Of a stretch of DNA of 31,280 bases, positions 1 through 24,146 are shown in pieces. The position numbers and the translations under genes were made by a program. The DNA is from a virus (Duplodnaviria; Heunggongvirae; Uroviricota; Caudoviricetes). Every line of letters begins with the position of its first letter. Positions within the stretch are counted from its first letter, which is position 1. The stretch is taken from the IMG/VR virus record IMGVR_UViG_3300045988_033906, positions 1 to 31,280 of that record, one strand, 5' to 3'. The notes below the pieces were generated by a model, which worked only from the letters and a program-made list of their open reading frames with translations, had not been told where the DNA came from and did no database searches.

Positions 1-35
1 ACTTCAAGGAACCTTTTGTGAGTCAGGCAACCAGT

Positions 36-209
36 ATGCGAAAACGACACCGATTTAACAGTCGCATGACCCGTATCGTACTGCTCATCAGCTTTATCTT
101 CTTCTTTGGCCGTTTTATCTACTCGTCCGTCGGTGCCTGGCAGCACCATCAGAGCAAAAAAGAAGCTCAGCAATCCACACTCTCCGTCGAATCACCGGTA
201 CAACGTTAG
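36..209 (+). CDS. hypothetical small protein with one hydrophobic segment
   Basis: ORF-track frame 18-209 begins at GTG; first ATG at 36 gives MRKRHRFNSRMTRIVLLISFIFFFGRF... (basic N-terminus then hydrophobic stretch). No homolog recognised, no clear RBS. Confidence 0.25.
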   Translation: MRKRHRFNSRMTRIVLLISFIFFFGRFIYSSVGAWQHHQSKKEAQQSTLSVESPVQR

Positions 210-519
210 CGGTTACCTTCTCCACTTTCACAGAACCTAACGGCACTTCGCTGTCGGATGCTTTTGCTCTTTGGAATTATCAAAGCGGCAGATATTCTTT
301 CATCTTAAATTTTACGTCTTTGTCCTGACTGATGTTTATCCTGTTTGGCTGCGAAATAAATATAAAATTAATATATATGTTGTAATGATATATTTTTATA
401 AATTATTCCCTGCATGAATTTTAATAAATTTAATCTATCCCTTTATACGCAATACATTTACTTTCCTCTTTTGATGATCTTAAATGTCTTATTTTTCGTA
501 ATGTGTATAACAAGGAATA

Positions 520-1038
520 GTGATGAAATTTAAAAAATGTCTTCTGCCTGTGGCAATGTTAGCGTCATTCACTCTGGCAGGATGCCAGTCAAATGCTGAC
601 GATCATGCCGCCGATGTTTATCAAACCGATCAACTGAATACCAAACAAGAAACTAAAACCGTTAATATTATTTCCATTCTTCCCGCAAAAGTTGCCGTAG
701 ACAACTCCCAAAATAAACGGAACGCACAAGCCTTCGGCGCGCTTATTGGCGCAGTCGCTGGCGGTGTTATCGGCCACAACGTCGGTTCTGGCAGCAATTC
801 CGGAACGACGGCAGGGGCAGTTGGCGGCGGAGCTGTAGGCGCGGCAGCGGGTTCTATGGTGAATGATAAAACCTTAGTGGAAGGTGTTTCTTTAACATAT
901 AAGGAAGGCACCAAAGTGTATACCTCTACCCAGGTGGGTAAAGAGTGCCAGTTTACGACAGGTTTAGCCGTTGTTATTACCACAACGTATAACGAAACGC
1001 GTATTCAGCCAAATACTAAATGTCCTGAAAAGAGCTAA
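520..1038 (+). CDS. outer-membrane lipoprotein, glycine-zipper (SlyB/Pcp 17-kDa-antigen-like)
   Basis: Signal peptide with lipobox LAGC (MMKFKKCLLPVAMLASFTLAGCQ), then Gly/Ala-rich glycine-zipper segment (GALIGAVAGGVIGHNVGSGSNSGTTAGAVGGGAVGAAAGS) as in SlyB-family lipoproteins; RBS AAGGAA upstream; AT-rich promoter region 220-519. Confidence 0.7.
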   Translation: MMKFKKCLLPVAMLASFTLAGCQSNADDHAADVYQTDQLNTKQETKTVNIISILPAKVAVDNSQNKRNAQAFGALIGAVAGGVIGHNVGSGSNSGTTAGAVGGGAVGAAAGSMVNDKTLVEGVSLTYKEGTKVYTSTQVGKECQFTTGLAVVITTTYNETRIQPNTKCPEKS

Positions 1039-1053
1039 TAATCAGGAGGAGTC

Positions 1054-1593
1054 ATGAAGAAAGTTTTTCTTTGCGCCATCTTGGCCTCCTTAAGCTATCC
1101 GGCTATCGCCTCATCATTGCAGGATCAACTCTCTGCTGTAGCAGAAGCTGAACAGCAAGGTAAAAATGAAGAGCAAAGGCAGCATGACGAATGGGTCGCG
1201 GAGCGCAACAGGGAAATCCAGCAAGAGAAGCAACGTCGCGCAAATGCCCAGGCCGCCGCTAACAAAAGAGCGGCAACGGCAGCAGCAAATAAGAAAGCTC
1301 GTCAGGATAAACTGGACGCCGAAGCCTCTGCGGACAAAAAACGCGATCAAAGTTATGAAGATGAGCTACGCAGCTTAGAGATTCAGAAACAAAAACTGGC
1401 GCTGGCGAAAGAAGAAGCCCGCGTTAAGCGAGAAAACGAATTTATCGATCAGGAACTGAAGCACAAAGCTGCGCAAACCGATGTGGTGCAATCTGAAGCT
1501 GACGCCAACAGAAATATGACTGAAGGCGGTCGCGATCTGATGAAAAGCGTGGGCAAAGCAGAAGAGAACAAATCGGACAGCTGGTTTAATTAA
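1054..1593 (+). CDS. secreted/periplasmic charged coiled-coil protein (unknown function)
   Basis: Strong RBS AGGAGG 6 nt before ATG; N-terminal signal peptide (MKKVFLCAILASLSYPAIASS); remainder highly charged K/E/Q/A-rich helical repeats; 15 nt downstream of the lipoprotein gene, likely same operon. Confidence 0.6.
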   Translation: MKKVFLCAILASLSYPAIASSLQDQLSAVAEAEQQGKNEEQRQHDEWVAERNREIQQEKQRRANAQAAANKRAATAAANKKARQDKLDAEASADKKRDQSYEDELRSLEIQKQKLALAKEEARVKRENEFIDQELKHKAAQTDVVQSEADANRNMTEGGRDLMKSVGKAEENKSDSWFN

Positions 1594-1631
1594 TCGATGT
1601 TAGTAACTTCAAGCCTATGATTCTTGAAGAT

Positions 1632-1668
1632 AAAAAACCCTCTGTAGTAACAGAGGGTTTTGTTCATT
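1632..1668. terminator. bidirectional rho-independent terminator between convergent units
   Basis: Stem ACCCTCTG (1637-1644) / CAGAGGGT (1651-1658), loop TAGTAA, A-run upstream and TTTTGTT downstream, so a U-tract follows the hairpin on both strands; lies between the + strand lipoprotein operon and the minus-strand lysis cassette. Confidence 0.6.
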
Positions 1669-1812
1669 CATAGTGCAGGGATTAAAATCATTCCCACTCA
1701 ATTATTTACGGATAACATAAGCAATTGACTGGCAACAACTTTTAAAACATTTAAATTTTCCATACCGTTTTATATACCGTCACCGGAAATCAGTACCATG
1801 AAAAATGCCATG

Positions 1813-3610: not shown

Positions 3611-3781
3611 AGTGACCACCGTTTACTGTGCATAAAAACCCCCTTAGTTGGTGAGTTCATCATACACAATAAACCATATATGGAGTAAATTACCTAAGAT
3701 AACTCCTACCAAAATTACCTTTAAGGTGATATGCTCTGTACAATTATTAATATACCGATAAACAAATAGTGAAGAAATATA

Positions 3782-4873
3782 ATGTTTACACCATCAATTA
3801 TTTCTATTGCATTCTCTTTGTCTATAATTATATTTTTTATAGCTTTAACTTATCCTGTTAGGAAATTAGTATATCAAAACGAAAAATTAAACCACTCAAT
3901 TGAAGGGCTCAGGGGTATCGCATGTATACTTGTATTTGTAAATCACTCAGCATGGATGCTGACAAACAATCATGTTGAGTCTGCAAAAATTGATTATACA
4001 AACTTCAATTATTTTGGTAATTTTGGTTCATTTGGGGTTGAATTATTTTTCTGTATAACAGGGTATCTTTTTTCTTCAAAAATAAAAAGTGGTGAGTTTG
4101 ATATAGAATTCTTTGGTAAGAGGATTAAAAGACTGGCGCCAGCTTATTTATTTGTGTCATTAATAACATTTATTCTTTTTATTGTAAAATACAACAATCT
4201 AATAGTTACTTTTGATGATATATCAAGAGTTATACAGCAGATATTTGGGTTTGGTTTTTTTGGTTCTGGAATTAGAGTGCAGGGTAGCACAATAACATCT
4301 CTAAATGCTGTGGTGTGGACGTTACCTTTCGAATGGAAGTTTTACGCAGCTATACCATTTATAGCATATTGCTTTAGAAGAAGAACAATTCTAATACCAT
4401 TATTTATATTTTCATTCTTTGTTATATATTCTCAGTACGCTGAAGATAATACGCTGTGGGTGTACTTTATAACTGGGTTTATCTGTTCTTATATTAAACC
4501 ATGCAAGAATAAAATTCTTTGTTTTGCATGTTCTATATCAGCTCTAGTTCTGATTATATATATTATATTAAGTAACTATTATCAATACAGCGCAATGAGG
4601 GTTATACCTATTAGTGCATTTTTTATTCTTTGCGTTTTTTCCAATCCAAAATGGATAAAAATAAAACCATTATCAATTGCTGGAACTCTTAGTTATAGCA
4701 TATATCTAACACACCAAGCGGCAATGTTTTGCATTGTTAACATAGCAAGCATTTTATTTAATGATTTTGATTTCACAACAGTCCATTTATTAATCTTAGC
4801 AATTATTTCAGCAATTTTAACGATTATCGCATCATTGCTCTTATACTCTAAGATTGAGAGAAGGTTTATCTAA
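3782..4873 (+). CDS. acyltransferase family 3 integral membrane protein (O-antigen acetyltransferase-like, candidate seroconversion gene)
   Basis: 363 aa, about 10 hydrophobic helices; N-terminal AT3 signature with conserved Arg/His (IEGLRGIACILVFVNH); gene is strikingly AT-rich compared with flanking phage genes; opposite strand to the late operon, between tailspike and lysis genes (typical moron slot). Confidence 0.8.
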   Translation: MFTPSIISIAFSLSIIIFFIALTYPVRKLVYQNEKLNHSIEGLRGIACILVFVNHSAWMLTNNHVESAKIDYTNFNYFGNFGSFGVELFFCITGYLFSSKIKSGEFDIEFFGKRIKRLAPAYLFVSLITFILFIVKYNNLIVTFDDISRVIQQIFGFGFFGSGIRVQGSTITSLNAVVWTLPFEWKFYAAIPFIAYCFRRRTILIPLFIFSFFVIYSQYAEDNTLWVYFITGFICSYIKPCKNKILCFACSISALVLIIYIILSNYYQYSAMRVIPISAFFILCVFSNPKWIKIKPLSIAGTLSYSIYLTHQAAMFCIVNIASILFNDFDFTTVHLLILAIISAILTIIASLLLYSKIERRFI

Positions 4874-4877
4874 AAAC

Positions 4878-4908
4878 AAAGCCCCATTATAAACGGGGCT
4901 TTTATTTT
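4878..4908. terminator. bidirectional rho-independent terminator
   Basis: GCCCC (4881-4885) / GGGGC (4894-4898) stem flanked by A-run and TTTTATTTT; serves convergent acyltransferase (+) and tailspike (-) genes. Confidence 0.6.
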
Positions 4909-7018
4909 AAATGTGACAAGTAAAACTTAGTTCTATTGTTGCATTTCCTGTAATTAAATCAGATATTAAAACATCAACTGGGCTGCCAGACCTAAAAATC
5001 CTTCTAAAAAATATTTTACCCCCACTTATGTATCCTTGCACATCAAGAAGGTTTGAATCAGTTCTTATTGTATTGTTTAATATTGGTATAATAGATCCAA
5101 CACAATCACCTTTGAAAGAACTTAAATATGTAGGTAATGATATAGCAAAAGCTAAAGATCCAGTATTGCTGGTGATGTTGCATGATATTGAAAGTCTGCC
5201 AGTAACACTTCTTTGGGTAATTTCATGCCTATAAATCTGAGATGTGTATGTGCAAGGTGCGTTTATTGTTGGGTTGAACCCAGTTGACTGAGGGAAAACA
5301 TAGAAGCTTTGTAAGTTACCACCAGACACAGTGGTATTGATTGGTGTTGCTGAACCAGCAAACACATATACTCCATCATCTTCTATACCAGAAACATCAG
5401 AACTAACTGGTTCTTTAATGTTATTTTCTGTCCCGCTAATATAAAACACCTTTCCATACTTAGGACCATCATTAACATGAAAAAGAACTCTTGGACCAAT
5501 TAGGTTGTTATTGAAACCAGATATTACATACCCAATCCCACCGTTAGATATACTGGCTGGTTGCGTCTTGTCAAGTTTATGCGGGGTGTCAGAATAAAAA
5601 TTAACAACATTATTTGAGCTGCCTCCTAGTTTTAATCCTATCAACATTACGCGTGTTGTTCTTATGCCATCCAGTCCCCATACATGCGTATTAACTATAT
5701 CATTGGCCCCACCTGTTATTTCCATACCGACAGGATAACCAACCACTGTAGTATTAACATACATACTATCAGACGTACGATGCAATATCCCACTAACGCC
5801 AGATGTTCCAAGCTGGTCTTCCGGAGCTACAACTGATGTATTATTGAATTTCCACTCATAACCTTTTTCAACATTAATACCTCCATTTAGCATGTTGAAT
5901 ATTCTTGCGTTATTTATTACAGGACCAACGCCATCAGTACCATAAATACCTATCGCAGAGACAGATGAGTCAGGCTCAATATACAGATTATCAAGTAGAA
6001 CCCTGTTACCAGTCTGAATGGCTGTTATTCCATCATTGTATGGAGCCCTCCAAGCATCATCCTTTATCTCTATAACAACCGTATCAGTAAAATTTTTTGG
6101 AACAATGGAACCGATATTCTCCATTCTCGCTCCACTTTTCAGAACAAGCCGAGAAGATATACATGTTTTACCAATGAATAATACAGCTCTTTTATTATCT
6201 GAAGACCAATCAAGAGCTTGCTGATTAGGAATGGTATCATCATCAATACCATTGCACTTAGCTCCAAATGAACGGTTTGTAATACAATCGGTCAGCACAT
6301 CTTCAACAACTCTAGTTGGAAATCCAGCAGGGCCAAATCCAATCAACCCTGCACCGGTTGGTTTTGCCAGCTCAATTAACACATCGGTGGCGCTACCTGA
6401 TGGGGGTAATGTTGTAAACGGCTGGCCAGCGCTATCAAAAGCAACAATTTTGTTTGCCCTGGAAATCGCATCAGGAAGAGCTTGAATAGCTTCAGGTGTT
6501 CTTAGTGTTTTGTTGAGGTTTGTATCCGCAACGCTATCAACATAATTTTTTGTTGCCGCATCCTGCGGGCGTGAAGGATCTCGCAGGTTTCTGATGTAGT
6601 TATTAAGAGCATCATAATAGTTAGCCACGAACGAAGGCTTTCTGAGGGCCAGACTCAACAAGCTGCGTACCTGCTGTATCAGCATCGTCAGTTTATCAAA
6701 TGCGTCTTCATGCACCTCAGCGAAGAACTTACCCTGGTTGCGCAGATCGGTTTCCTGCGTAACCGGTAGCTCTCTTGATATAGAAATCTGATAACCGTTA
6801 GCCAACGCCTTCGACAGAATTACATTACCACCGTTATACCCTCCCGCCCCGGTAACTGTGTAATCAGTATCAAGAGCAAGAACAGTGATATTTTCATCAA
6901 GGTCAACCACTTGCACTACCAGATCAGATTTCTGGAAAATCCTGAAAGTATACGGAAATGATGTCGTAACGCCGTTACCGGTGTATTCGTTGTGGTCAAC
7001 TTCGGTTGAGACCGTCAT
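4907..7018 (-). CDS. tailspike protein: T7 gp17-like N-terminal particle-binding domain fused to a beta-helix (polysaccharide depolymerase-like) receptor-binding domain
   Basis: 703 aa; N-terminus (MTVSTEVDHNEYTGNGVTTSFPYTFRIFQKSDLVVQVV...DTDYTV) follows the conserved pattern of podovirus tail-fiber N-domains; remainder Gly/Asn/Ser/Thr-rich repeats typical of parallel beta-helix; RBS GGAG before ATG 7018; 3' (C-terminal) half is AT-rich like the adjacent acyltransferase. Confidence 0.85.
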   Translation of the reverse strand: MTVSTEVDHNEYTGNGVTTSFPYTFRIFQKSDLVVQVVDLDENITVLALDTDYTVTGAGGYNGGNVILSKALANGYQISISRELPVTQETDLRNQGKFFAEVHEDAFDKLTMLIQQVRSLLSLALRKPSFVANYYDALNNYIRNLRDPSRPQDAATKNYVDSVADTNLNKTLRTPEAIQALPDAISRANKIVAFDSAGQPFTTLPPSGSATDVLIELAKPTGAGLIGFGPAGFPTRVVEDVLTDCITNRSFGAKCNGIDDDTIPNQQALDWSSDNKRAVLFIGKTCISSRLVLKSGARMENIGSIVPKNFTDTVVIEIKDDAWRAPYNDGITAIQTGNRVLLDNLYIEPDSSVSAIGIYGTDGVGPVINNARIFNMLNGGINVEKGYEWKFNNTSVVAPEDQLGTSGVSGILHRTSDSMYVNTTVVGYPVGMEITGGANDIVNTHVWGLDGIRTTRVMLIGLKLGGSSNNVVNFYSDTPHKLDKTQPASISNGGIGYVISGFNNNLIGPRVLFHVNDGPKYGKVFYISGTENNIKEPVSSDVSGIEDDGVYVFAGSATPINTTVSGGNLQSFYVFPQSTGFNPTINAPCTYTSQIYRHEITQRSVTGRLSISCNITSNTGSLAFAISLPTYLSSFKGDCVGSIIPILNNTIRTDSNLLDVQGYISGGKIFFRRIFRSGSPVDVLISDLITGNATIELSFTCHI

Positions 7019-7121
7019 GTTAAATCTCCAGATAGTTGCAGCACCCGTTGCGCCGCATATCTGGTTATTCTATTACCTGAAAAACCACATATGGATAGAA
7101 AGACTGTAAATACGAATAGAT

Positions 7122-7138
7122 ATTACCTTTCTGGTAAT
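7122..7138. promoter_or_regulatory. perfect inverted repeat ATTACC-N5-GGTAAT (candidate operator), copy A
   Basis: ATTACCTTTCTGGTAAT at 7122-7138; same IR architecture recurs at 23733-23747 and 30377-30393 (and weaker at 30316-30330); about 40 bp upstream of the LexA box. Confidence 0.4.
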
Positions 7139-7176
7139 TTGCAAAACGTGCTGGATAGCAAACAAATTATTTGCTA

Positions 7177-7192
7177 CTGTATAAATATACAG
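7177..7192 (+). promoter_or_regulatory. LexA (SOS) box overlapping probable promoter of the 85-aa gene
   Basis: taCTGTATAAATATACAGtt matches the enterobacterial LexA consensus TACTGTATATATATACAGTA at 18 of 20 positions; contains TATAAAT (-10-like); RBS GGAG at 7202-7205 and ATG at 7214 follow. Confidence 0.65.
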
Positions 7193-7213
7193 TTATTGCA
7201 TGGAGAAGATAAG

Positions 7214-7471
7214 ATGCAGCAGTATCACTATCCACTGGAAGACGGATTTACCGAAAGGATTCACACGCCGGGAGGCGTCAGGTCACTGGTGGAGGGATCG
7301 CACTTGATGAAATTACTCCGGGATCTCGATAAGGATGGATTTAATGTCGATGGCCCACTTGCCGAACTGACTGCACTGATTAACTACGTCACCAGCTCAC
7401 AGATGTCTATGCAGGATCTGCAAACACATCTCGACTATTGTGCCGAACAATTACGAAAACAAACCACATAA
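7214..7471 (+). CDS. SOS-regulated small protein of unknown function (85 aa); candidate antirepressor-type moron
   Basis: ORF-track frame 7091-7471; internal ATG at 7214 has RBS GGAG 8 nt upstream and sits just downstream of the LexA box; MQQYHYPLEDGFTERIHTPGG...; no homolog recognised; opposite strand to the late operon. Confidence 0.6.
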   Translation: MQQYHYPLEDGFTERIHTPGGVRSLVEGSHLMKLLRDLDKDGFNVDGPLAELTALINYVTSSQMSMQDLQTHLDYCAEQLRKQTT

Positions 7472-7477
7472 AGAAAA

Positions 7478-7493
7478 GGCCGCGAAAGCGGCC
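7478..7493 (-). terminator. rho-independent terminator (minus strand; may also stop the + strand moron)
   Basis: GGCCGC GAAA GCGGCC hairpin; on the minus strand it is followed by TTTTCTTTAT; lies between the 46-aa minus-strand ORF and the + strand 85-aa gene stop (7471). Confidence 0.55.
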
Positions 7494-7494
7494 T

Positions 7495-7513: not shown

Positions 7514-7654
7514 TTATGACAAACCTATATACCCTGCTACACCAGATAATATCAAAACAACTGCAACAGCAAATTCACCATCACCAATGATACATTTACG
7601 GTTCATAACGCCAAGTGCAACAAGAGCGAACACAACGAGAATAAAAGCAATCAT
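7514..7654 (-). CDS. unannotated 46-aa hydrophobic micro-protein (two predicted TM segments)
   Basis: Below ORF-track size cutoff. ATG at 7654 with AAGGA about 6 nt upstream, immediately after the stop (7664-7666) of the 824-aa gene; translation MIAFILVVFALVALGVMNRKCIIGDGEFAVAVVLILSGVAGYIGLS; followed by the palindrome and terminator. Confidence 0.45.
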   Translation of the reverse strand: MIAFILVVFALVALGVMNRKCIIGDGEFAVAVVLILSGVAGYIGLS

Positions 7655-7663
7655 TTCTCATCC

Positions 7664-10138
7664 TTATTGCGGAGTGACATCCTGCGGTCGCCACCAGTAT
7701 GTCTGATTAAACTCTTTCTTCGAACGTTGCTCCATTTTACGCAAATAGCCTGGTGAAAAATACTCCTGCATCTGGTTAAAGATCATGTGATCGAGAGCCG
7801 CCTTCAAGTACCAGAGATTCGCACCTGGCATCAGCCCCTTCCCAAGCTTAACCAGATCACCACCAGTCTGCTCATTCTTCCCTTCCACAGCATTTAACGG
7901 TATGCCCTGAGCAATCTTCACTACGTCATCAACCAGACCAGCTACCGGGCCAAGCATCGACGCCAGCGCGCCGCTTCCGTACCTAGTGTGATCTGACAAT
8001 AAAAAGTCACCGTAAAGGCCAAGACCACCACCTTTCAGTAGAGCACCAAGCCAAAATTTAGCAGCATCTTCCCCCGTCATCTCGCGAGGATTACGACCAG
8101 ACGCAAGGTCGTTAAGTTGCTGCGACAAAGCGCCAAGAATGGTCGTACTGGCAATAAACGTCGCAATATATGCCGCACGCCCACCAGCAGACGGCATCCC
8201 CATAGCGCGTGACCAGTGACGCATAACAACCGAGATAGGGAACGATTTAAACAGGAAAACACTTCTCGTTAATTCACCTTTCCATGTTCCACGCTGAATA
8301 CCAGAACCGGTTATCAGTTGCTCACGTGCTCCCGGTGTAATAACAGCCATATCAATTTCTTCAGTTACGGCACCGAGCAGTTTACGCATTGCCTCAAATT
8401 TCACGCGTTCAGGCTCACCAAGATGTTTAACTGCTGAATCAGGGATACGCATAATGCTTTCCGGTGTCAGCATCGTATTATTACCGTTCCCCCAGTCCTC
8501 CTGTTGCGCCAGCTTCCATACGCTCCAGTCTGTGTCAGTAATCCCTTTGCTTTTCAGGATACGAAAATCAGAGTCATCGAGGCTACGAAGGTCTGGTGTC
8601 CGTGACACTACTTCTCCCAGGCTTCCCATCATAGTTACGCCATAGGCGCGCTTGTGCGCATCTGACCATGCTGTAAGCCCACTGGCACGCATTACCGCCG
8701 TTGCCGCCCAACGAGACACAGACGGCCCCATATTATCCATCGCCCAGCGGTTAACGCTGCCAAGTAGAGATTCCATCGCCAGACCAGCTCGGCGCGCCCG
8801 CGCAAGCTCAGTACGGTTCGTTGGGTCAATAGCTTCAAGCTGGTTGCGGAATAACTGGTTCATTGGAAGGTTGGTAACCTTCGCAGACAGATACATGGTT
8901 CCAAGATCAGAGAACGATGACAGCAACGCGGATCCGAGTCTGCTGGCAACCAGCCAGTTGCGGATATTGTCAGACCATCGCGCGATGTGCGGATTCGCTA
9001 CAGGCTGTGTCTTTCCGGAAATAAAGTTGTACAGATTCTCTGTGTTGTTCGCCAGCCGCTCGACTTTACCGGTTTTACTCGGGTTAGCTGTTGCCGTTTC
9101 TGCCTTAACCTGATCAAGAAGGGAGCGGAAAACATGATCGGGGTTTGGACCATATGTTTCCACCAGTGCAATATCTTTACTGATACCTTCCAGGTGACCG
9201 ACCATGATTTCCCATAGAGAGCGATCGCCATAAAGTTGCTGATATTGCAGATAGGAATCTGCATCTTTGAAATGTATCTGTCGTGATGCATTACCACGGT
9301 TAGCACGTGCGCCGGAAATTCGCATTCCGGTATCAGTAAGCTTATTCAGCCCACCAGTAGCGATCGTGTTATAAGCCTCTCCAAGAAATGCAGACAACTC
9401 GGCATCGTTCATCAGTTGTCCATCGGCTCGGATATAATATTTGCGATCCAGCTTACCTATAACATCGCTAACCCACTTATCCTTTGATACCGCCCCAACC
9501 TTTTCCATAGAATGATGTTGAGGGATCCCCCAGTTTTCGAGATAGCCAATGTCCCCACCAGCATCATTAAACCGGCGGCGCAGTAGCTCTGTCACTTCTC
9601 TCCACGCCTTAGCACCTTTTCTTGCTTTAGCATTGCCAGTATTTTGCCCCCGCATTTCATATACCAGGTCACGTACGCCCGCTTCATCTTCAAACAGACC
9701 AAAAAAGCGAGGATCAACTGCTTCGAATGCCTCCTGCAATTGACTCAATGCATAATCACGGGTGGCTTTTGTTCTGGATTCAACAGAGAGGAAATTCGAT
9801 TTACCGTCTGCATTAAAAGCAATAGTACGGTTAAGAGCGCCAAGTTTCCCATCAGCCCCTTGATAGCTATTGATAAATTTATCCAATCTCTGACGTGCGG
9901 CTATAGTGAGGGCCACACGACGTTTCTTTAATGCCGCTTCTCGCTGTAATTCTTCAGATGCCAATTGTGCTGCACGATATAGCCGCTCTGATTCGGAAAG
10001 TTGTCTCCACGACATCGTGTCATCACGAGCAATGGAGCGCATATTTCGATAAATGCGGTCTTCAATGTTCTGTATTTCTCGCGCCGTTAACGTGCGCTGC
10101 GCCGCCTGCTGGACCGCTTGTATACATTCCTGTCTCAT
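7664..10138 (-). CDS. internal virion / ejection protein (large)
   Basis: 824 aa; RBS GAGAGG before ATG 10138; last of a run of large genes between tail tubular genes and tailspike, the position of T7 gp15/gp16-type core proteins; no enzymatic motif recognised. Confidence 0.7.
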   Translation of the reverse strand: MRQECIQAVQQAAQRTLTAREIQNIEDRIYRNMRSIARDDTMSWRQLSESERLYRAAQLASEELQREAALKKRRVALTIAARQRLDKFINSYQGADGKLGALNRTIAFNADGKSNFLSVESRTKATRDYALSQLQEAFEAVDPRFFGLFEDEAGVRDLVYEMRGQNTGNAKARKGAKAWREVTELLRRRFNDAGGDIGYLENWGIPQHHSMEKVGAVSKDKWVSDVIGKLDRKYYIRADGQLMNDAELSAFLGEAYNTIATGGLNKLTDTGMRISGARANRGNASRQIHFKDADSYLQYQQLYGDRSLWEIMVGHLEGISKDIALVETYGPNPDHVFRSLLDQVKAETATANPSKTGKVERLANNTENLYNFISGKTQPVANPHIARWSDNIRNWLVASRLGSALLSSFSDLGTMYLSAKVTNLPMNQLFRNQLEAIDPTNRTELARARRAGLAMESLLGSVNRWAMDNMGPSVSRWAATAVMRASGLTAWSDAHKRAYGVTMMGSLGEVVSRTPDLRSLDDSDFRILKSKGITDTDWSVWKLAQQEDWGNGNNTMLTPESIMRIPDSAVKHLGEPERVKFEAMRKLLGAVTEEIDMAVITPGAREQLITGSGIQRGTWKGELTRSVFLFKSFPISVVMRHWSRAMGMPSAGGRAAYIATFIASTTILGALSQQLNDLASGRNPREMTGEDAAKFWLGALLKGGGLGLYGDFLLSDHTRYGSGALASMLGPVAGLVDDVVKIAQGIPLNAVEGKNEQTGGDLVKLGKGLMPGANLWYLKAALDHMIFNQMQEYFSPGYLRKMEQRSKKEFNQTYWWRPQDVTPQ

Positions 10139-23642: not shown

Positions 23643-23732
23643 ATCAATGACTCCGTACGCAATTAAATTATTACCAATTTAACCACATATGATTTATTTA
23701 TCGTAGACAGTTGACATTTAACGCACAAATTA

Positions 23733-24069: not shown

Positions 24070-24146
24070 GTGGCATTAGCTCAGCTGGACAGAGCAACCG
24101 CCTTCTAAGCGGTTGGTCGCAGGTTCGAATCCTGCATGCCACGCCA
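24070..24146 (+). tRNA. tRNA-Arg (anticodon UCU), phage-encoded
   Basis: Hand-folded cloverleaf: acceptor GTGGCAT/ATGCCAC (7 bp), D-stem GCTC/GAGC, anticodon stem ACCGC/GCGGT with loop CTTCTAA (anticodon TCT), T-stem GCAGG/CCTGC with loop TTCGAAT, discriminator G, encoded CCA. Confidence 0.85.

What the first reader, a model, noticed from the sequence alone, without database searches (positions are those of the whole stretch)
7122..7471. SOS-box-controlled 85-aa gene embedded antisense in the late operon (candidate antirepressor / induction switch)
A near-consensus LexA operator (TACTGTATAAATATACAGTT, 7175-7194) overlaps a -10-like TATAAAT and is followed by an RBS and an 85-aa ORF with no recognisable homology. 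The gene is on the opposite strand from the surrounding structural genes, has its own terminator, and is preceded by the recurrent ATTACC-N5-GGTAAT inverted repeat. In several enterobacterial prophages, induction is triggered by small LexA-repressed antirepressors encoded at moron positions far from the immunity region; this gene has exactly that signature.
Basis: partly seen in the sequence, partly recalled or inferred. Interest (0 to 1): 0.75.

Follow-up and report, generated by a model that had tools for sequence, protein, structure and literature searches.

The report
Known SOS-controlled phage antirepressor Ant

Summary
A near-consensus LexA box lies at 7175-7194. It scores 27.3 bits, against 10.2 for the next best site in the window and 20.2 for the best of 500 shuffles. 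It sits 20 nt upstream of an 85-aa ORF (7214-7471, + strand), antisense between the tailspike gene and the virion-protein operon of an integrated Uetakevirus (epsilon15/phiV10-like) prophage.

The claim of "no recognisable homology" is wrong. The protein matches PDB 5D50 chain E, "Anti-repressor protein" of Salmonella phage SPC32H (E = 1.3e-47, 88% identity). It occupies the same position as the annotated ant gene (SPC32H_020).

SPC32H and its sister phage SPC32N differ by one base inside this LexA box. The box is the only strong LexA site in the whole SPC32H and epsilon15 genomes.

The recurrent ATTACC-N5-GGTAAT repeat is real (9 hits against 1 expected). It is the Rep operator, annotated as such in the epsilon15 RefSeq record. 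The copy at 7122 looks like part of the tailspike promoter module rather than part of ant's control.

The hairpin after ant carries its T-run on the opposite strand. The rep gene lies outside the window.

Its main value is for annotation, because the gene is called "hypothetical protein" in 531 of 5426 complete E. coli genomes.

The parts
7175..7194 (.). LexA operator (SOS box) TACTGTATAAATATACAGTT, overlapping the ant promoter region
   Evidence: It matches 18 of 20 consensus positions and is the only hit with up to 3 mismatches, against 0 expected. The PWM score is 27.3 bits against a shuffle maximum of 20.2. The box is conserved at the same place in E. coli, Salmonella and Enterobacter uetakeviruses, and is weaker (ATGT left half) in Klebsiella ones. 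SPC32H and SPC32N differ by one base in the CAG half-site. It is the only LexA site above 12 bits in the whole SPC32H and epsilon15 genomes.
7152..7186 (+). Candidate ant promoter. Option 1: -35 TGGATA (7152-7157), 17-nt spacer, -10 TACTGT (7175-7180). Option 2: extended -10 TGtATAAAT (7178-7186). The transcription start is not mapped.
   Evidence: CTGGA(T/A)A and TAC-TGT are invariant across 11 relatives, whereas TATAAAT is not conserved. Neither option passes the stringent sigma-70 scan. This assignment is inference.
7202..7205 (+). Shine-Dalgarno GGAG, 8 nt before the ant ATG
   Evidence: GGAG is invariant in alignment A1. Sequence read.
7214..7471 (+). ant, an 85-aa antirepressor (stop codon included in the coordinates)
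   Evidence: PDB 5d50_E 'Anti-repressor protein', E = 1.3e-47, aligned over residues 2-85. It is 88% identical to SPC32H_020 'ant' and 100% identical to the TL-2011b and EC.W1-9 homologs. Synteny is shown. It matches phrog_450 at E = 1.4e-47. The upstream in-frame extension is interrupted by stop codons in epsilon15 and in a Klebsiella phage.
7477..7494 (-). G+C-rich hairpin between the convergent ant and late-operon genes. It is an intrinsic terminator with its T-run on the minus strand and may act in both directions.
   Evidence: The terminator scan calls it on the - strand only. Folding gives -17.9 kcal/mol on the + strand and -17.5 kcal/mol on the - strand. epsilon15 annotates the equivalent stem-loop on the late-gene strand.
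7122..7138 (.). Rep (phage repressor) operator ATTACC-N5-GGTAAT in the ant-tailspike intergenic region
   Evidence: The motif is enriched in the window, 9 hits against 1.0 expected, and in SPC32H, 18 against 0.9, with two clusters of three flanking rep. The positional equivalent in epsilon15 is annotated 'protein_bind repressor, lysogeny'. It is invariant in the alignment.
7072..7093 (-). Conserved late-strand promoter module downstream of the operator: CATATGTGGTTT (7082-7093) plus a GGTAAT half-site (7072-7077). It probably belongs to the tailspike promoter.
   Evidence: The same motif, with up to 1 mismatch, lies 30-45 bp downstream of Rep operators on the - strand at 3671, 7082, 23680 and 30335. 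The block is conserved in alignment A1. Its function is inferred.
4907..7018 (-). Tailspike gene, divergent neighbour of ant
   Evidence: ORF. The N-terminal region is syntenic with the annotated tailspike or tail fibre genes of PAS61, SPC32H and epsilon15.
7514..7654 (-). 46-aa putative integral membrane protein, the last gene of the virion operon and convergent with ant
   Evidence: It matches phrog_7892 at E = 1.2e-31. It is syntenic with SPC32H_019 and PhiV10p21, both 'putative integral membrane protein'.

Best explanation
The gene at 7214-7471 is ant, the SPC32H-type antirepressor of Uetakevirus (epsilon15/phiV10-like) prophages.

Proposed mechanism:
1. In the lysogen, a host LexA dimer sits on the SOS box at 7175-7194, which overlaps the -10 region of the ant promoter, so ant is silent.
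2. The phage repressor Rep, encoded about 2-3 kb beyond the right end of the window, occupies ATTACC-N5-GGTAAT operators at the phage promoters.
3. DNA damage activates RecA, and LexA cleaves itself.
4. ant is then transcribed.
5. Ant, a tetramer, binds the C-terminal domains of Rep, splits the Rep tetramer into dimers and releases it from the operators.
6. The prophage enters lytic growth.

Shown here: the SOS box, the homology and synteny with the crystallised Ant, the operators in the window, and a Rep homolog in the closest relatives.

Inferred: LexA binding at this particular site, and Ant-Rep binding in this E. coli lineage.
For: - Homology: PDB 5d50_E 'Anti-repressor protein', E = 1.3e-47. 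tblastn gives 88% identity to SPC32H 'ant: anti-repressor protein', 100% to TL-2011b and 97.6% to phiV10 gp24.
- Synteny: in SPC32H the gene sits antisense between the membrane-protein gene 019 and tsp, as it does in the window.
- SOS box strength: 27.3 bits, unique in the window, and unique in the whole SPC32H and epsilon15 genomes.
- Conservation: the box is conserved while the flanking sequence diverges. SPC32H and SPC32N differ by one base in its CAG half, which lowers the score from 25.1 to 18.8 bits.
- Operators: Rep operators are enriched in the window at positions equivalent to those of SPC32H and are annotated as repressor sites in epsilon15.
- Co-occurrence: Rep homologs are found in essentially the same set of phage records as Ant, 36 against 35.
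- Closest relatives: PAS61 and the E. coli GF4 prophage encode a full-length Rep homolog that matches PDB 5d50_A and 5d4z and is flanked by the same operators.
- Literature through secondary sources. Ant is made after LexA self-cleavage and inhibits the repressor by protein-protein interaction (PMC7380047). The Ant tetramer binds two Rep dimers and breaks the tetramer (PMC9638917). The Rep C-terminal domain mediates both tetramerisation and Ant binding (PMC9986798).
Against: - rep is not in the window: tblastn with SPC32H Rep found nothing. The cognate target in this particular prophage is therefore inferred from relatives.
- In the E. coli lineage Rep is only 42% identical to SPC32H Rep, so Ant-Rep binding there is untested.
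- No canonical sigma-70 promoter is called on the + strand, and the transcription start is unknown.
- The two primary papers (Kim & Ryu 2013, J Virol 87:11775; Kim et al. 2016, PNAS 113:E2480) could not be read here. Details such as the phenotype of the SPC32N LexA-box mutation rest on my memory of the abstract plus the sequence difference seen.
Confidence: 0.93

Rival explanations
1. ant is under dual control. The Rep operator at 7122-7138, whose centre lies 54.5 bp upstream of the SOS box centre, also represses the ant promoter or loops to it. Ant production would then be self-reinforcing once Rep starts to fall off. This is a refinement of the main explanation, not an alternative identity for the gene.
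For: The operator is invariant, and its spacing to the LexA box is conserved at 35-36 bp across 11 phages from four host genera. Rep is described as a tetramer able to bridge sites.
Against: The operator is accompanied, on the tailspike side, by the same CATATGTGGTTT plus half-site module that follows operators in front of three other minus-strand operons. It is therefore most simply the tailspike operator. It lies upstream of the likely -35 of ant. From my memory of the Kim & Ryu 2013 abstract, the single LexA-box mutation of SPC32N is enough for constitutive Ant synthesis, which argues that Rep does not hold ant off by itself.
Confidence: 0.2
2. The switch is decayed or rewired in this prophage. 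ant and its SOS box are retained, but the resident repressor is no longer an Ant-sensitive Rep, so the gene has no effect on induction here.
For: rep is outside the window. The early region is mosaic: the window has a lambda-P-like helicase loader, and no complete E. coli genome covers at least 80% of 28500-31280. E. coli-lineage Rep is only 42% identical to the Rep whose Ant complex was solved.
Against: The window carries the same Rep operators at all five expected promoter regions. The closest E. coli prophage (GF4, with an ant region 99.4% identical) has a full-length Rep homolog with operators next to the same P-type replication genes. The Ant protein is under strong purifying selection: 88% amino-acid identity against 79% nucleotide identity with SPC32H.
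Confidence: 0.06
3. The real product is the 126-aa protein starting at ATG 7091, as annotated in phage PAS61. In that case the LexA box and the operator would be coding sequence.
For: An open frame runs from 7091 to 7471. The PAS61 record annotates the 381-nt version.
Against: The extension contains in-frame stop codons in epsilon15 and in the Klebsiella phage. The alignment of the upstream region has frame-breaking indels. A conserved GGAG precedes ATG 7214. The crystallised chain is 86 aa and aligns to residues 2-85.
Confidence: 0.02
4. It is an SOS-induced moron with some other role, such as a DinI-like SOS modulator, a toxin or an exclusion factor, and not an antirepressor.
For: Curated family libraries give no function. 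Pfam gives only a sub-threshold DUF724 hit, NCBIfam gives nothing, and phrog_450 is 'unknown function'.
Against: The protein is 88% identical over its full length to a protein crystallised in complex with its repressor. It also shows weaker similarity to the C-terminal domain of annotated anti-repressors: phrog_1760 at E = 4.5e-7, and Tyrion gp20 and the Klebsiella phage ST11-OXA245phi3.2 Bro-N protein at E = 2e-19 and 8e-21.
Confidence: 0.02

Closest known systems
Ant antirepressor of Salmonella phage SPC32H (SPC32H_020; PDB 5D50 chains E-H; Kim & Ryu 2013 J Virol 87:11775; Kim et al. 2016 PNAS 113:E2480)
   Same: 88% amino-acid identity over the full length and the same size (85 aa against 86). 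It has the same antisense position between the small membrane-protein gene and the tailspike gene, the same SOS box just upstream, the same Rep operator 36 bp further upstream, and the same ATTACC-N5-GGTAAT operators elsewhere in the genome.
   Different: The host is Escherichia rather than Salmonella. The SOS box is closer to consensus (27.3 bits against 25.1). The cognate Rep of this lineage is only 42% identical to SPC32H Rep. The early and replication region is a different mosaic module. No experiment has been done on this lineage as far as I could find.
epsilon15 gp19 and phiV10 gp24 (Uetakevirus 'hypothetical proteins')
   Same: Orthologs at 84.5% and 97.6% identity in the same position. 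The epsilon15 RefSeq record already annotates the 17-bp inverted repeats as repressor-binding sites.
   Different: These records still call the protein hypothetical. phiV10 has an extra Bro-N gene inserted downstream of ant, which the window lacks.
LexA-controlled antirepressors of other phages: Tum (coliphage 186, Fels-2), GfoA, GftA and GfhA (Gifsy prophages), AntC (N15)
   Same: The logic is the same. The repressor is not cleaved. A small antirepressor gene sits far from the immunity region behind a LexA box, and its product inactivates the repressor by binding it (PMC3121763; PMC7380047).
   Different: No sequence relationship was detected: no Pfam hit to DinI, Tum or any other family. The location is different, since here the gene is antisense inside the virion-gene block. 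The reported mechanism also differs, because Ant binds the repressor's C-terminal tetramerisation domain rather than competing for its DNA-binding surface.
Bro-N domain 'anti-repressor' proteins (COG3617-like; phrog_1760), e.g. Enterobacter phage Tyrion gp20
   Same: Their C-terminal ~80 residues are homologous to the whole of Ant: 38% identity, E = 2e-19 and 8e-21, and phrog_1760 at E = 4.5e-7. In Tyrion, phiV10 and a Klebsiella prophage they are encoded immediately downstream of ant on the same strand.
   Different: The window protein has no Bro-N domain, and the window has no such downstream gene.

Membership tests
SPC32H-type Ant antirepressor (Uetakevirus Ant/Rep switch) | Full-length sequence homology to SPC32H Ant | tested here: met
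   PDB 5d50_E, E = 1.3e-47, residues 2-85 aligned to 3-86. 88.1% identity by tblastn.
SPC32H-type Ant antirepressor (Uetakevirus Ant/Rep switch) | Small free-standing protein (~86 aa) encoded antisense between the last virion-operon gene and the tailspike gene | tested here: met
   Window ORFs compared with the SPC32H annotation 019/ant/tsp. The same arrangement is found in 65FD, epsilon15 and BUCT554.
SPC32H-type Ant antirepressor (Uetakevirus Ant/Rep switch) | LexA box overlapping the ant promoter | tested here: met
   The box at 7175-7194 scores 27.3 bits and is unique. It aligns with the SPC32H box, which carries the SPC32H/SPC32N single-base difference. The promoter position itself is inferred.
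SPC32H-type Ant antirepressor (Uetakevirus Ant/Rep switch) | Cognate Rep repressor (N-terminal HTH plus C-terminal tetramerisation and Ant-binding domain) in the same element | tested here: inconclusive
   No Rep is encoded in the window. By synteny it lies beyond the right end. The closest relatives, PAS61 and the E. coli GF4 prophage, have a 194-aa Rep homolog that matches 5d50_A (E = 4e-42) and 5d4z.
SPC32H-type Ant antirepressor (Uetakevirus Ant/Rep switch) | Rep operators (ATTACC-N5-GGTAAT) at the phage promoters | tested here: met
   9 sites against 1.0 expected in the window, at positions equivalent to SPC32H sites. Annotated as repressor sites in epsilon15.
SPC32H-type Ant antirepressor (Uetakevirus Ant/Rep switch) | SOS-dependent expression, and physical inactivation of Rep by Ant | not testable with these tools
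   This needs EMSA, ChIP, RNA-seq and binding assays. It is known only for SPC32H, through secondary citations.
Tum / DinI-fusion and Gifsy-type LexA-controlled antirepressors | Sequence homology to Tum, DinI or the Gifsy antirepressors | tested here: not met
   A Pfam scan at E up to 1 gave only a sub-threshold DUF724 hit and no DinI or Tum family. NCBIfam gave nothing. Direct pairwise comparison with GfoA, GftA or Tum was not done.
Bro-N / COG3617 prophage antirepressors | N-terminal Bro-N domain (PF02498) | tested here: not met
   There is no Bro-N hit in the 85-aa protein. Only the C-terminal domain of such proteins resembles Ant.

The most novel reading that the evidence does not exclude
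The free-standing Ant may be the same protein module as the C-terminal domain of a set of Bro-N 'antirepressors'. It is also conserved far more tightly (88%) than the Rep it targets (42%). Ant could therefore be a shared inducer module that recognises a small conserved patch on otherwise divergent Rep C-terminal domains. That would allow SOS-triggered cross-induction between different Uetakevirus prophages. It would also link the supposedly separate 'podovirus class' of antirepressors to the large Bro-N family. A related possibility is that the invariant Rep operator 36 bp upstream of the SOS box gives ant positive feedback.
Probability: 0.25. Interest if true: 0.35.

Novelty: already known. 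Interest (0 to 1): 0.1.

Why it matters
Biologically this adds nothing new. The Ant/Rep/LexA switch of epsilon15-like phages was described genetically in 2013 and structurally in 2016, and the operators were already annotated in epsilon15.

Its practical value is for annotation:
- The gene has no Pfam or NCBIfam model, and its PHROG family is labelled 'unknown function'.
- It is called 'hypothetical protein' in all 12 listed records among the 531 of 5426 complete E. coli genomes that carry the locus.
- Several phage records give it a wrong start: 126 aa in PAS61 and 54 aa in Tyrion.

Recognising it identifies these common guaA-yfgI prophages as SOS-inducible through an antirepressor rather than through repressor cleavage.

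Tried and rejected
- Primary papers: attempts to read them failed (PMC3807360, PMC4983836, DOI 10.1128/JVI.02173-13, and the epsilon15 genome paper PMC2698709). I used secondary citations and database annotation instead.
- CTGT-N8-ACAG core: the core alone is not enriched (9 hits against 11.2 expected with up to 1 mismatch), so I scored the full 20-mer.
- Second LexA-like site: the site at 7102-7121 scores only 6.9 bits and is not conserved. Rejected.
- Promoter scan: no + strand promoter was found.
- Pfam DUF724 hit: 17.6 bits against a cut-off of 38.4. Rejected as noise.
- Rep in the window: tblastn found nothing.
- Exact source genome: a search for the window's right end found only mosaic matches with at most 72% coverage.
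- 126-aa extended ORF: rejected because of stop codons in the orthologous regions.
- Large searches: I did not run the protein-database searches or structure prediction, because 88% identity to a solved structure already settles the identity.

Full report
**Context.**
The window is an integrated Uetakevirus (epsilon15/phiV10-like) prophage in an Escherichia chromosome.
- Its first ~1.7 kb are the host genes yfgG, yfgH and yfgI.
- The rest is collinear, in reverse orientation, with Salmonella phage SPC32H from the Rz gene round to the replication genes.
- The best phage match for the region of interest is E. coli phage vB_EcoP_PAS61 at 96% identity.

**The observation.**
- TACTGTATAAATATACAGTT is at 7175-7194.
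- It is the only sequence in the window within 3 mismatches of the LexA consensus, against 0.00 expected.
That is above every training site (maximum 26.7), far above the next site in the window (10.2) and above the best of 500 shuffles (20.2).
- The CTGT-N8-ACAG core alone is not enriched.
- The ORF runs from ATG 7214 to the stop at 7471, 85 aa, and is preceded by GGAG at 7202-7205.
- It is antisense to the tailspike gene (4907-7018) on one side and to the virion operon (7514-7654, 7664-10138 and onward) on the other.

**What it is.**
- It matches PDB 5D50 chain E, 'Anti-repressor protein', with E = 1.3e-47 over residues 2-85.
- By tblastn it is 88% identical to the gene annotated 'ant: anti-repressor protein' in phages SPC32H and SPC32N, 100% identical to the homologs of TL-2011b and EC.W1-9, 97.6% to phiV10 gp24 and 84.5% to epsilon15 gp19.
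- The SPC32H record places ant (SPC32H_020) antisense between a small integral membrane protein gene (019) and tsp (021), as in the window.
- Phages 65FD and 66FD annotate their copy as 'putative anti-repressor protein'.

**Control region.**
I aligned the ant-tailspike intergenic region of 11 phages from E. coli, Salmonella, Enterobacter and Klebsiella. The conserved islands are:
- the 17-bp inverted repeat ATTACC-N5-GGTAAT;
- a CTGGA(T/A)A block;
- the SOS box;
- the Shine-Dalgarno GGAG;
- the ATG.

SPC32H and SPC32N differ in this region by a single base, C to A in the CAG half of the box. This lowers the PWM score from 25.1 to 18.8 bits. It fits my recollection of the Kim & Ryu 2013 abstract, in which a single-nucleotide LexA-box mutation makes Ant constitutive in SPC32N. 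I could not read that paper here.

The ant SOS box is the only LexA site above 12 bits in the complete SPC32H and epsilon15 genomes. LexA input into these phages therefore goes through ant alone.

The Klebsiella relatives have an ATGT left half and score 17-18 bits, still within the range of genuine sites.

The invariant TGGATA-N17-TACTGT pair is a better candidate promoter, but no canonical promoter is called and the transcription start is unknown. Under either option the SOS box covers the -10 region.

**The inverted repeat.**
- ATTACC-N5-GGTAAT is truly recurrent: 9 sites with up to 2 mismatches against 1.0 expected in the window, and 18 against 0.9 in SPC32H.
- In SPC32H it forms two clusters of three flanking rep, plus single or double sites ahead of the terminase, head, tailspike, lysis and resolvase operons.
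- The window sites (3714, 7122, 23732, 26841/26859, 30315/30377) are the positional equivalents.
- The epsilon15 RefSeq record annotates these sites as 'protein_bind: repressor, lysogeny', including the one between gp19 and gp20. The repeat is therefore the Rep operator, and this is already in the public annotation.
- On the minus strand, four of these operators are followed 30-45 bp downstream by CATATGTGGTTT (up to 1 mismatch), three of them with a GGTAAT half-site further on. This holds ahead of the lysis, tailspike, head and resolvase genes.
- The operator at 7122-7138 therefore looks like part of the tailspike promoter module rather than part of ant's control. Its fixed 35-36 bp spacing to the SOS box leaves a role at ant open.

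**The terminator.**
- The hairpin at 7477-7494 is strong on both strands, at -17.9 and -17.5 kcal/mol.
- The T-run is on the minus strand, and epsilon15 annotates it as the late-operon terminator.
- On the ant strand it is followed by TGTGACATG, so for ant it is at best the back side of a bidirectional terminator.

**Start codon.**
- PAS61 annotates a 126-aa version starting at the ATG equivalent to 7091.
- In epsilon15 and in a Klebsiella phage that extension carries in-frame stop codons.
- The extension would also run through the operator and the SOS box.
- The crystallised chain is 86 aa.
- The 85-aa product is therefore correct.

**The target.**
- Rep is not encoded in the window.
- In the E. 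coli GF4 prophage, whose ant region is 99.4% identical, the order is guaA | int ... recT ... HTH regulator (194 aa) ... DnaT-like, P .... This puts rep about 2-3 kb beyond the window's right end.
- That protein, like PAS61's 'putative repressor', is a full-length homolog of SPC32H Rep (42% identity, E = 2e-53). It matches PDB 5d50_A and 5d4z and is flanked by ATTACC-N5-GGTAAT sites.
- Rep homologs occur in essentially the same set of phage records as Ant, 36 against 35.

**Mechanism.**
For SPC32H the literature, read only through secondary sources, states three things:
1. [quoted passage not shown]
2. Rep binds DNA as a tetramer, and Ant, a tetramer, binds two Rep dimers and breaks the tetramer (PMC9638917).
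3. The Rep C-terminal domain mediates both tetramerisation and Ant binding (PMC9986798).

By homology, synteny and the conserved cis elements, the window element works the same way. LexA binding and Ant-Rep binding in this E. coli lineage are inferred and have not been shown.

**Comparison with other systems.**
- The logic is that of Tum (phage 186), the Gifsy antirepressors GfoA and GftA, and N15 AntC (PMC3121763). No sequence relationship to those was detected.
- Ant is homologous to the C-terminal ~80 residues of Bro-N 'anti-repressors' encoded just downstream of ant in Tyrion and in a Klebsiella prophage (38% identity, E about 1e-20). The phiV10 copy is truncated, and phrog_1760 matches at E = 4.5e-7. 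The window lacks that gene.

**Verdict.**
- The system is already known, so interest is low.
- The residual value is for annotation. There is no Pfam or NCBIfam family, and PHROG 450 is 'unknown function'. The listed PGAP annotations call the gene 'hypothetical protein', and 531 of 5426 complete E. coli genomes carry the locus.

Noticed in passing
window 1-1812: The left end is host chromosome (yfgG, yfgH, yfgI; about 96-97% identical to E. coli). The prophage-host junction (attR) must lie in 1594-1812, between yfgI and the Rz-like gene. 367 of 5426 complete E. coli genomes cover at least 80% of the first 2.4 kb of the window, which spans this junction. In strain GF4 the other end of the prophage abuts guaA.
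   Followed up: partly
window 3671-3682, 7082-7093, 23680-23691, 30335-30346 (all - strand): A second conserved motif, CATATGTGGTTT (up to 1 mismatch), lies 30-45 bp downstream of Rep operators in front of four minus-strand operons: lysis, tailspike, head and resolvase. Three of the four are followed by a GGTAAT half-site. It is probably a shared promoter or activator element, and it does not look like a sigma-70 -10/-35 pair. All hits with up to 1 mismatch are at these operator-linked positions.
   Followed up: partly
L015 618-1322 (Tyrion gp20), L016 1041-1730 (Klebsiella phage ST11-OXA245phi3.2), L014 647-1231 (phiV10p23): Several relatives carry a Bro-N domain 'anti-repressor' immediately downstream of ant on the same strand. 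Its C-terminal ~80 aa are homologous to Ant itself (38% identity, E = 2e-19 and 8e-21). The phiV10 copy is truncated within that domain. No separate LexA box precedes these genes. The window and SPC32H lack this gene.
   Followed up: partly
L017 1501-2085 (PAS61 Rep), L018 8081-8665 (E. coli GF4 prophage Rep), compared with L003 33739-34335 (SPC32H Rep): Conservation is asymmetric. Ant is 88% identical between the E. coli and Salmonella lineages, whereas the Rep it should bind is only 42% identical. The operator consensus ATTACC-N5-GGTAAT is nevertheless the same in both.
   Followed up: partly
window 7091-7471; L002 3190-3570; L007 491-655: Annotation of ant is inconsistent in public records: 126 aa in PAS61 (start too early), 54 aa in Tyrion (start too late), 'hypothetical protein' in epsilon15, phiV10 and in all 12 listed E. 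coli RefSeq records (531 genomes carry the locus). There is no Pfam or NCBIfam model, and phrog_450 is labelled 'unknown function'.
   Followed up: yes
window 3782-4873 (+): A 363-aa O-acetyltransferase or O-antigen acetylase-like gene (phrog_3333, E = 7e-43) lies between the tailspike gene and the lysis cassette, on the opposite strand. It is a likely serotype-conversion moron, at the position of oac in SPC32H but much shorter.
   Followed up: no
window 24070-24146 (+): A tRNA-Arg (anticodon TCT) lies between the terminase and head operons, at the position of the tRNA-Arg annotated in SPC32H.
   Followed up: no
window 28500-31280: The early and replication region is mosaic relative to other uetakeviruses. 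It has a lambda-P-like helicase loader (30430-31230, phrog_109) and ead/Ea22-like genes, and no complete E. coli genome covers at least 80% of this stretch.
   Followed up: partly
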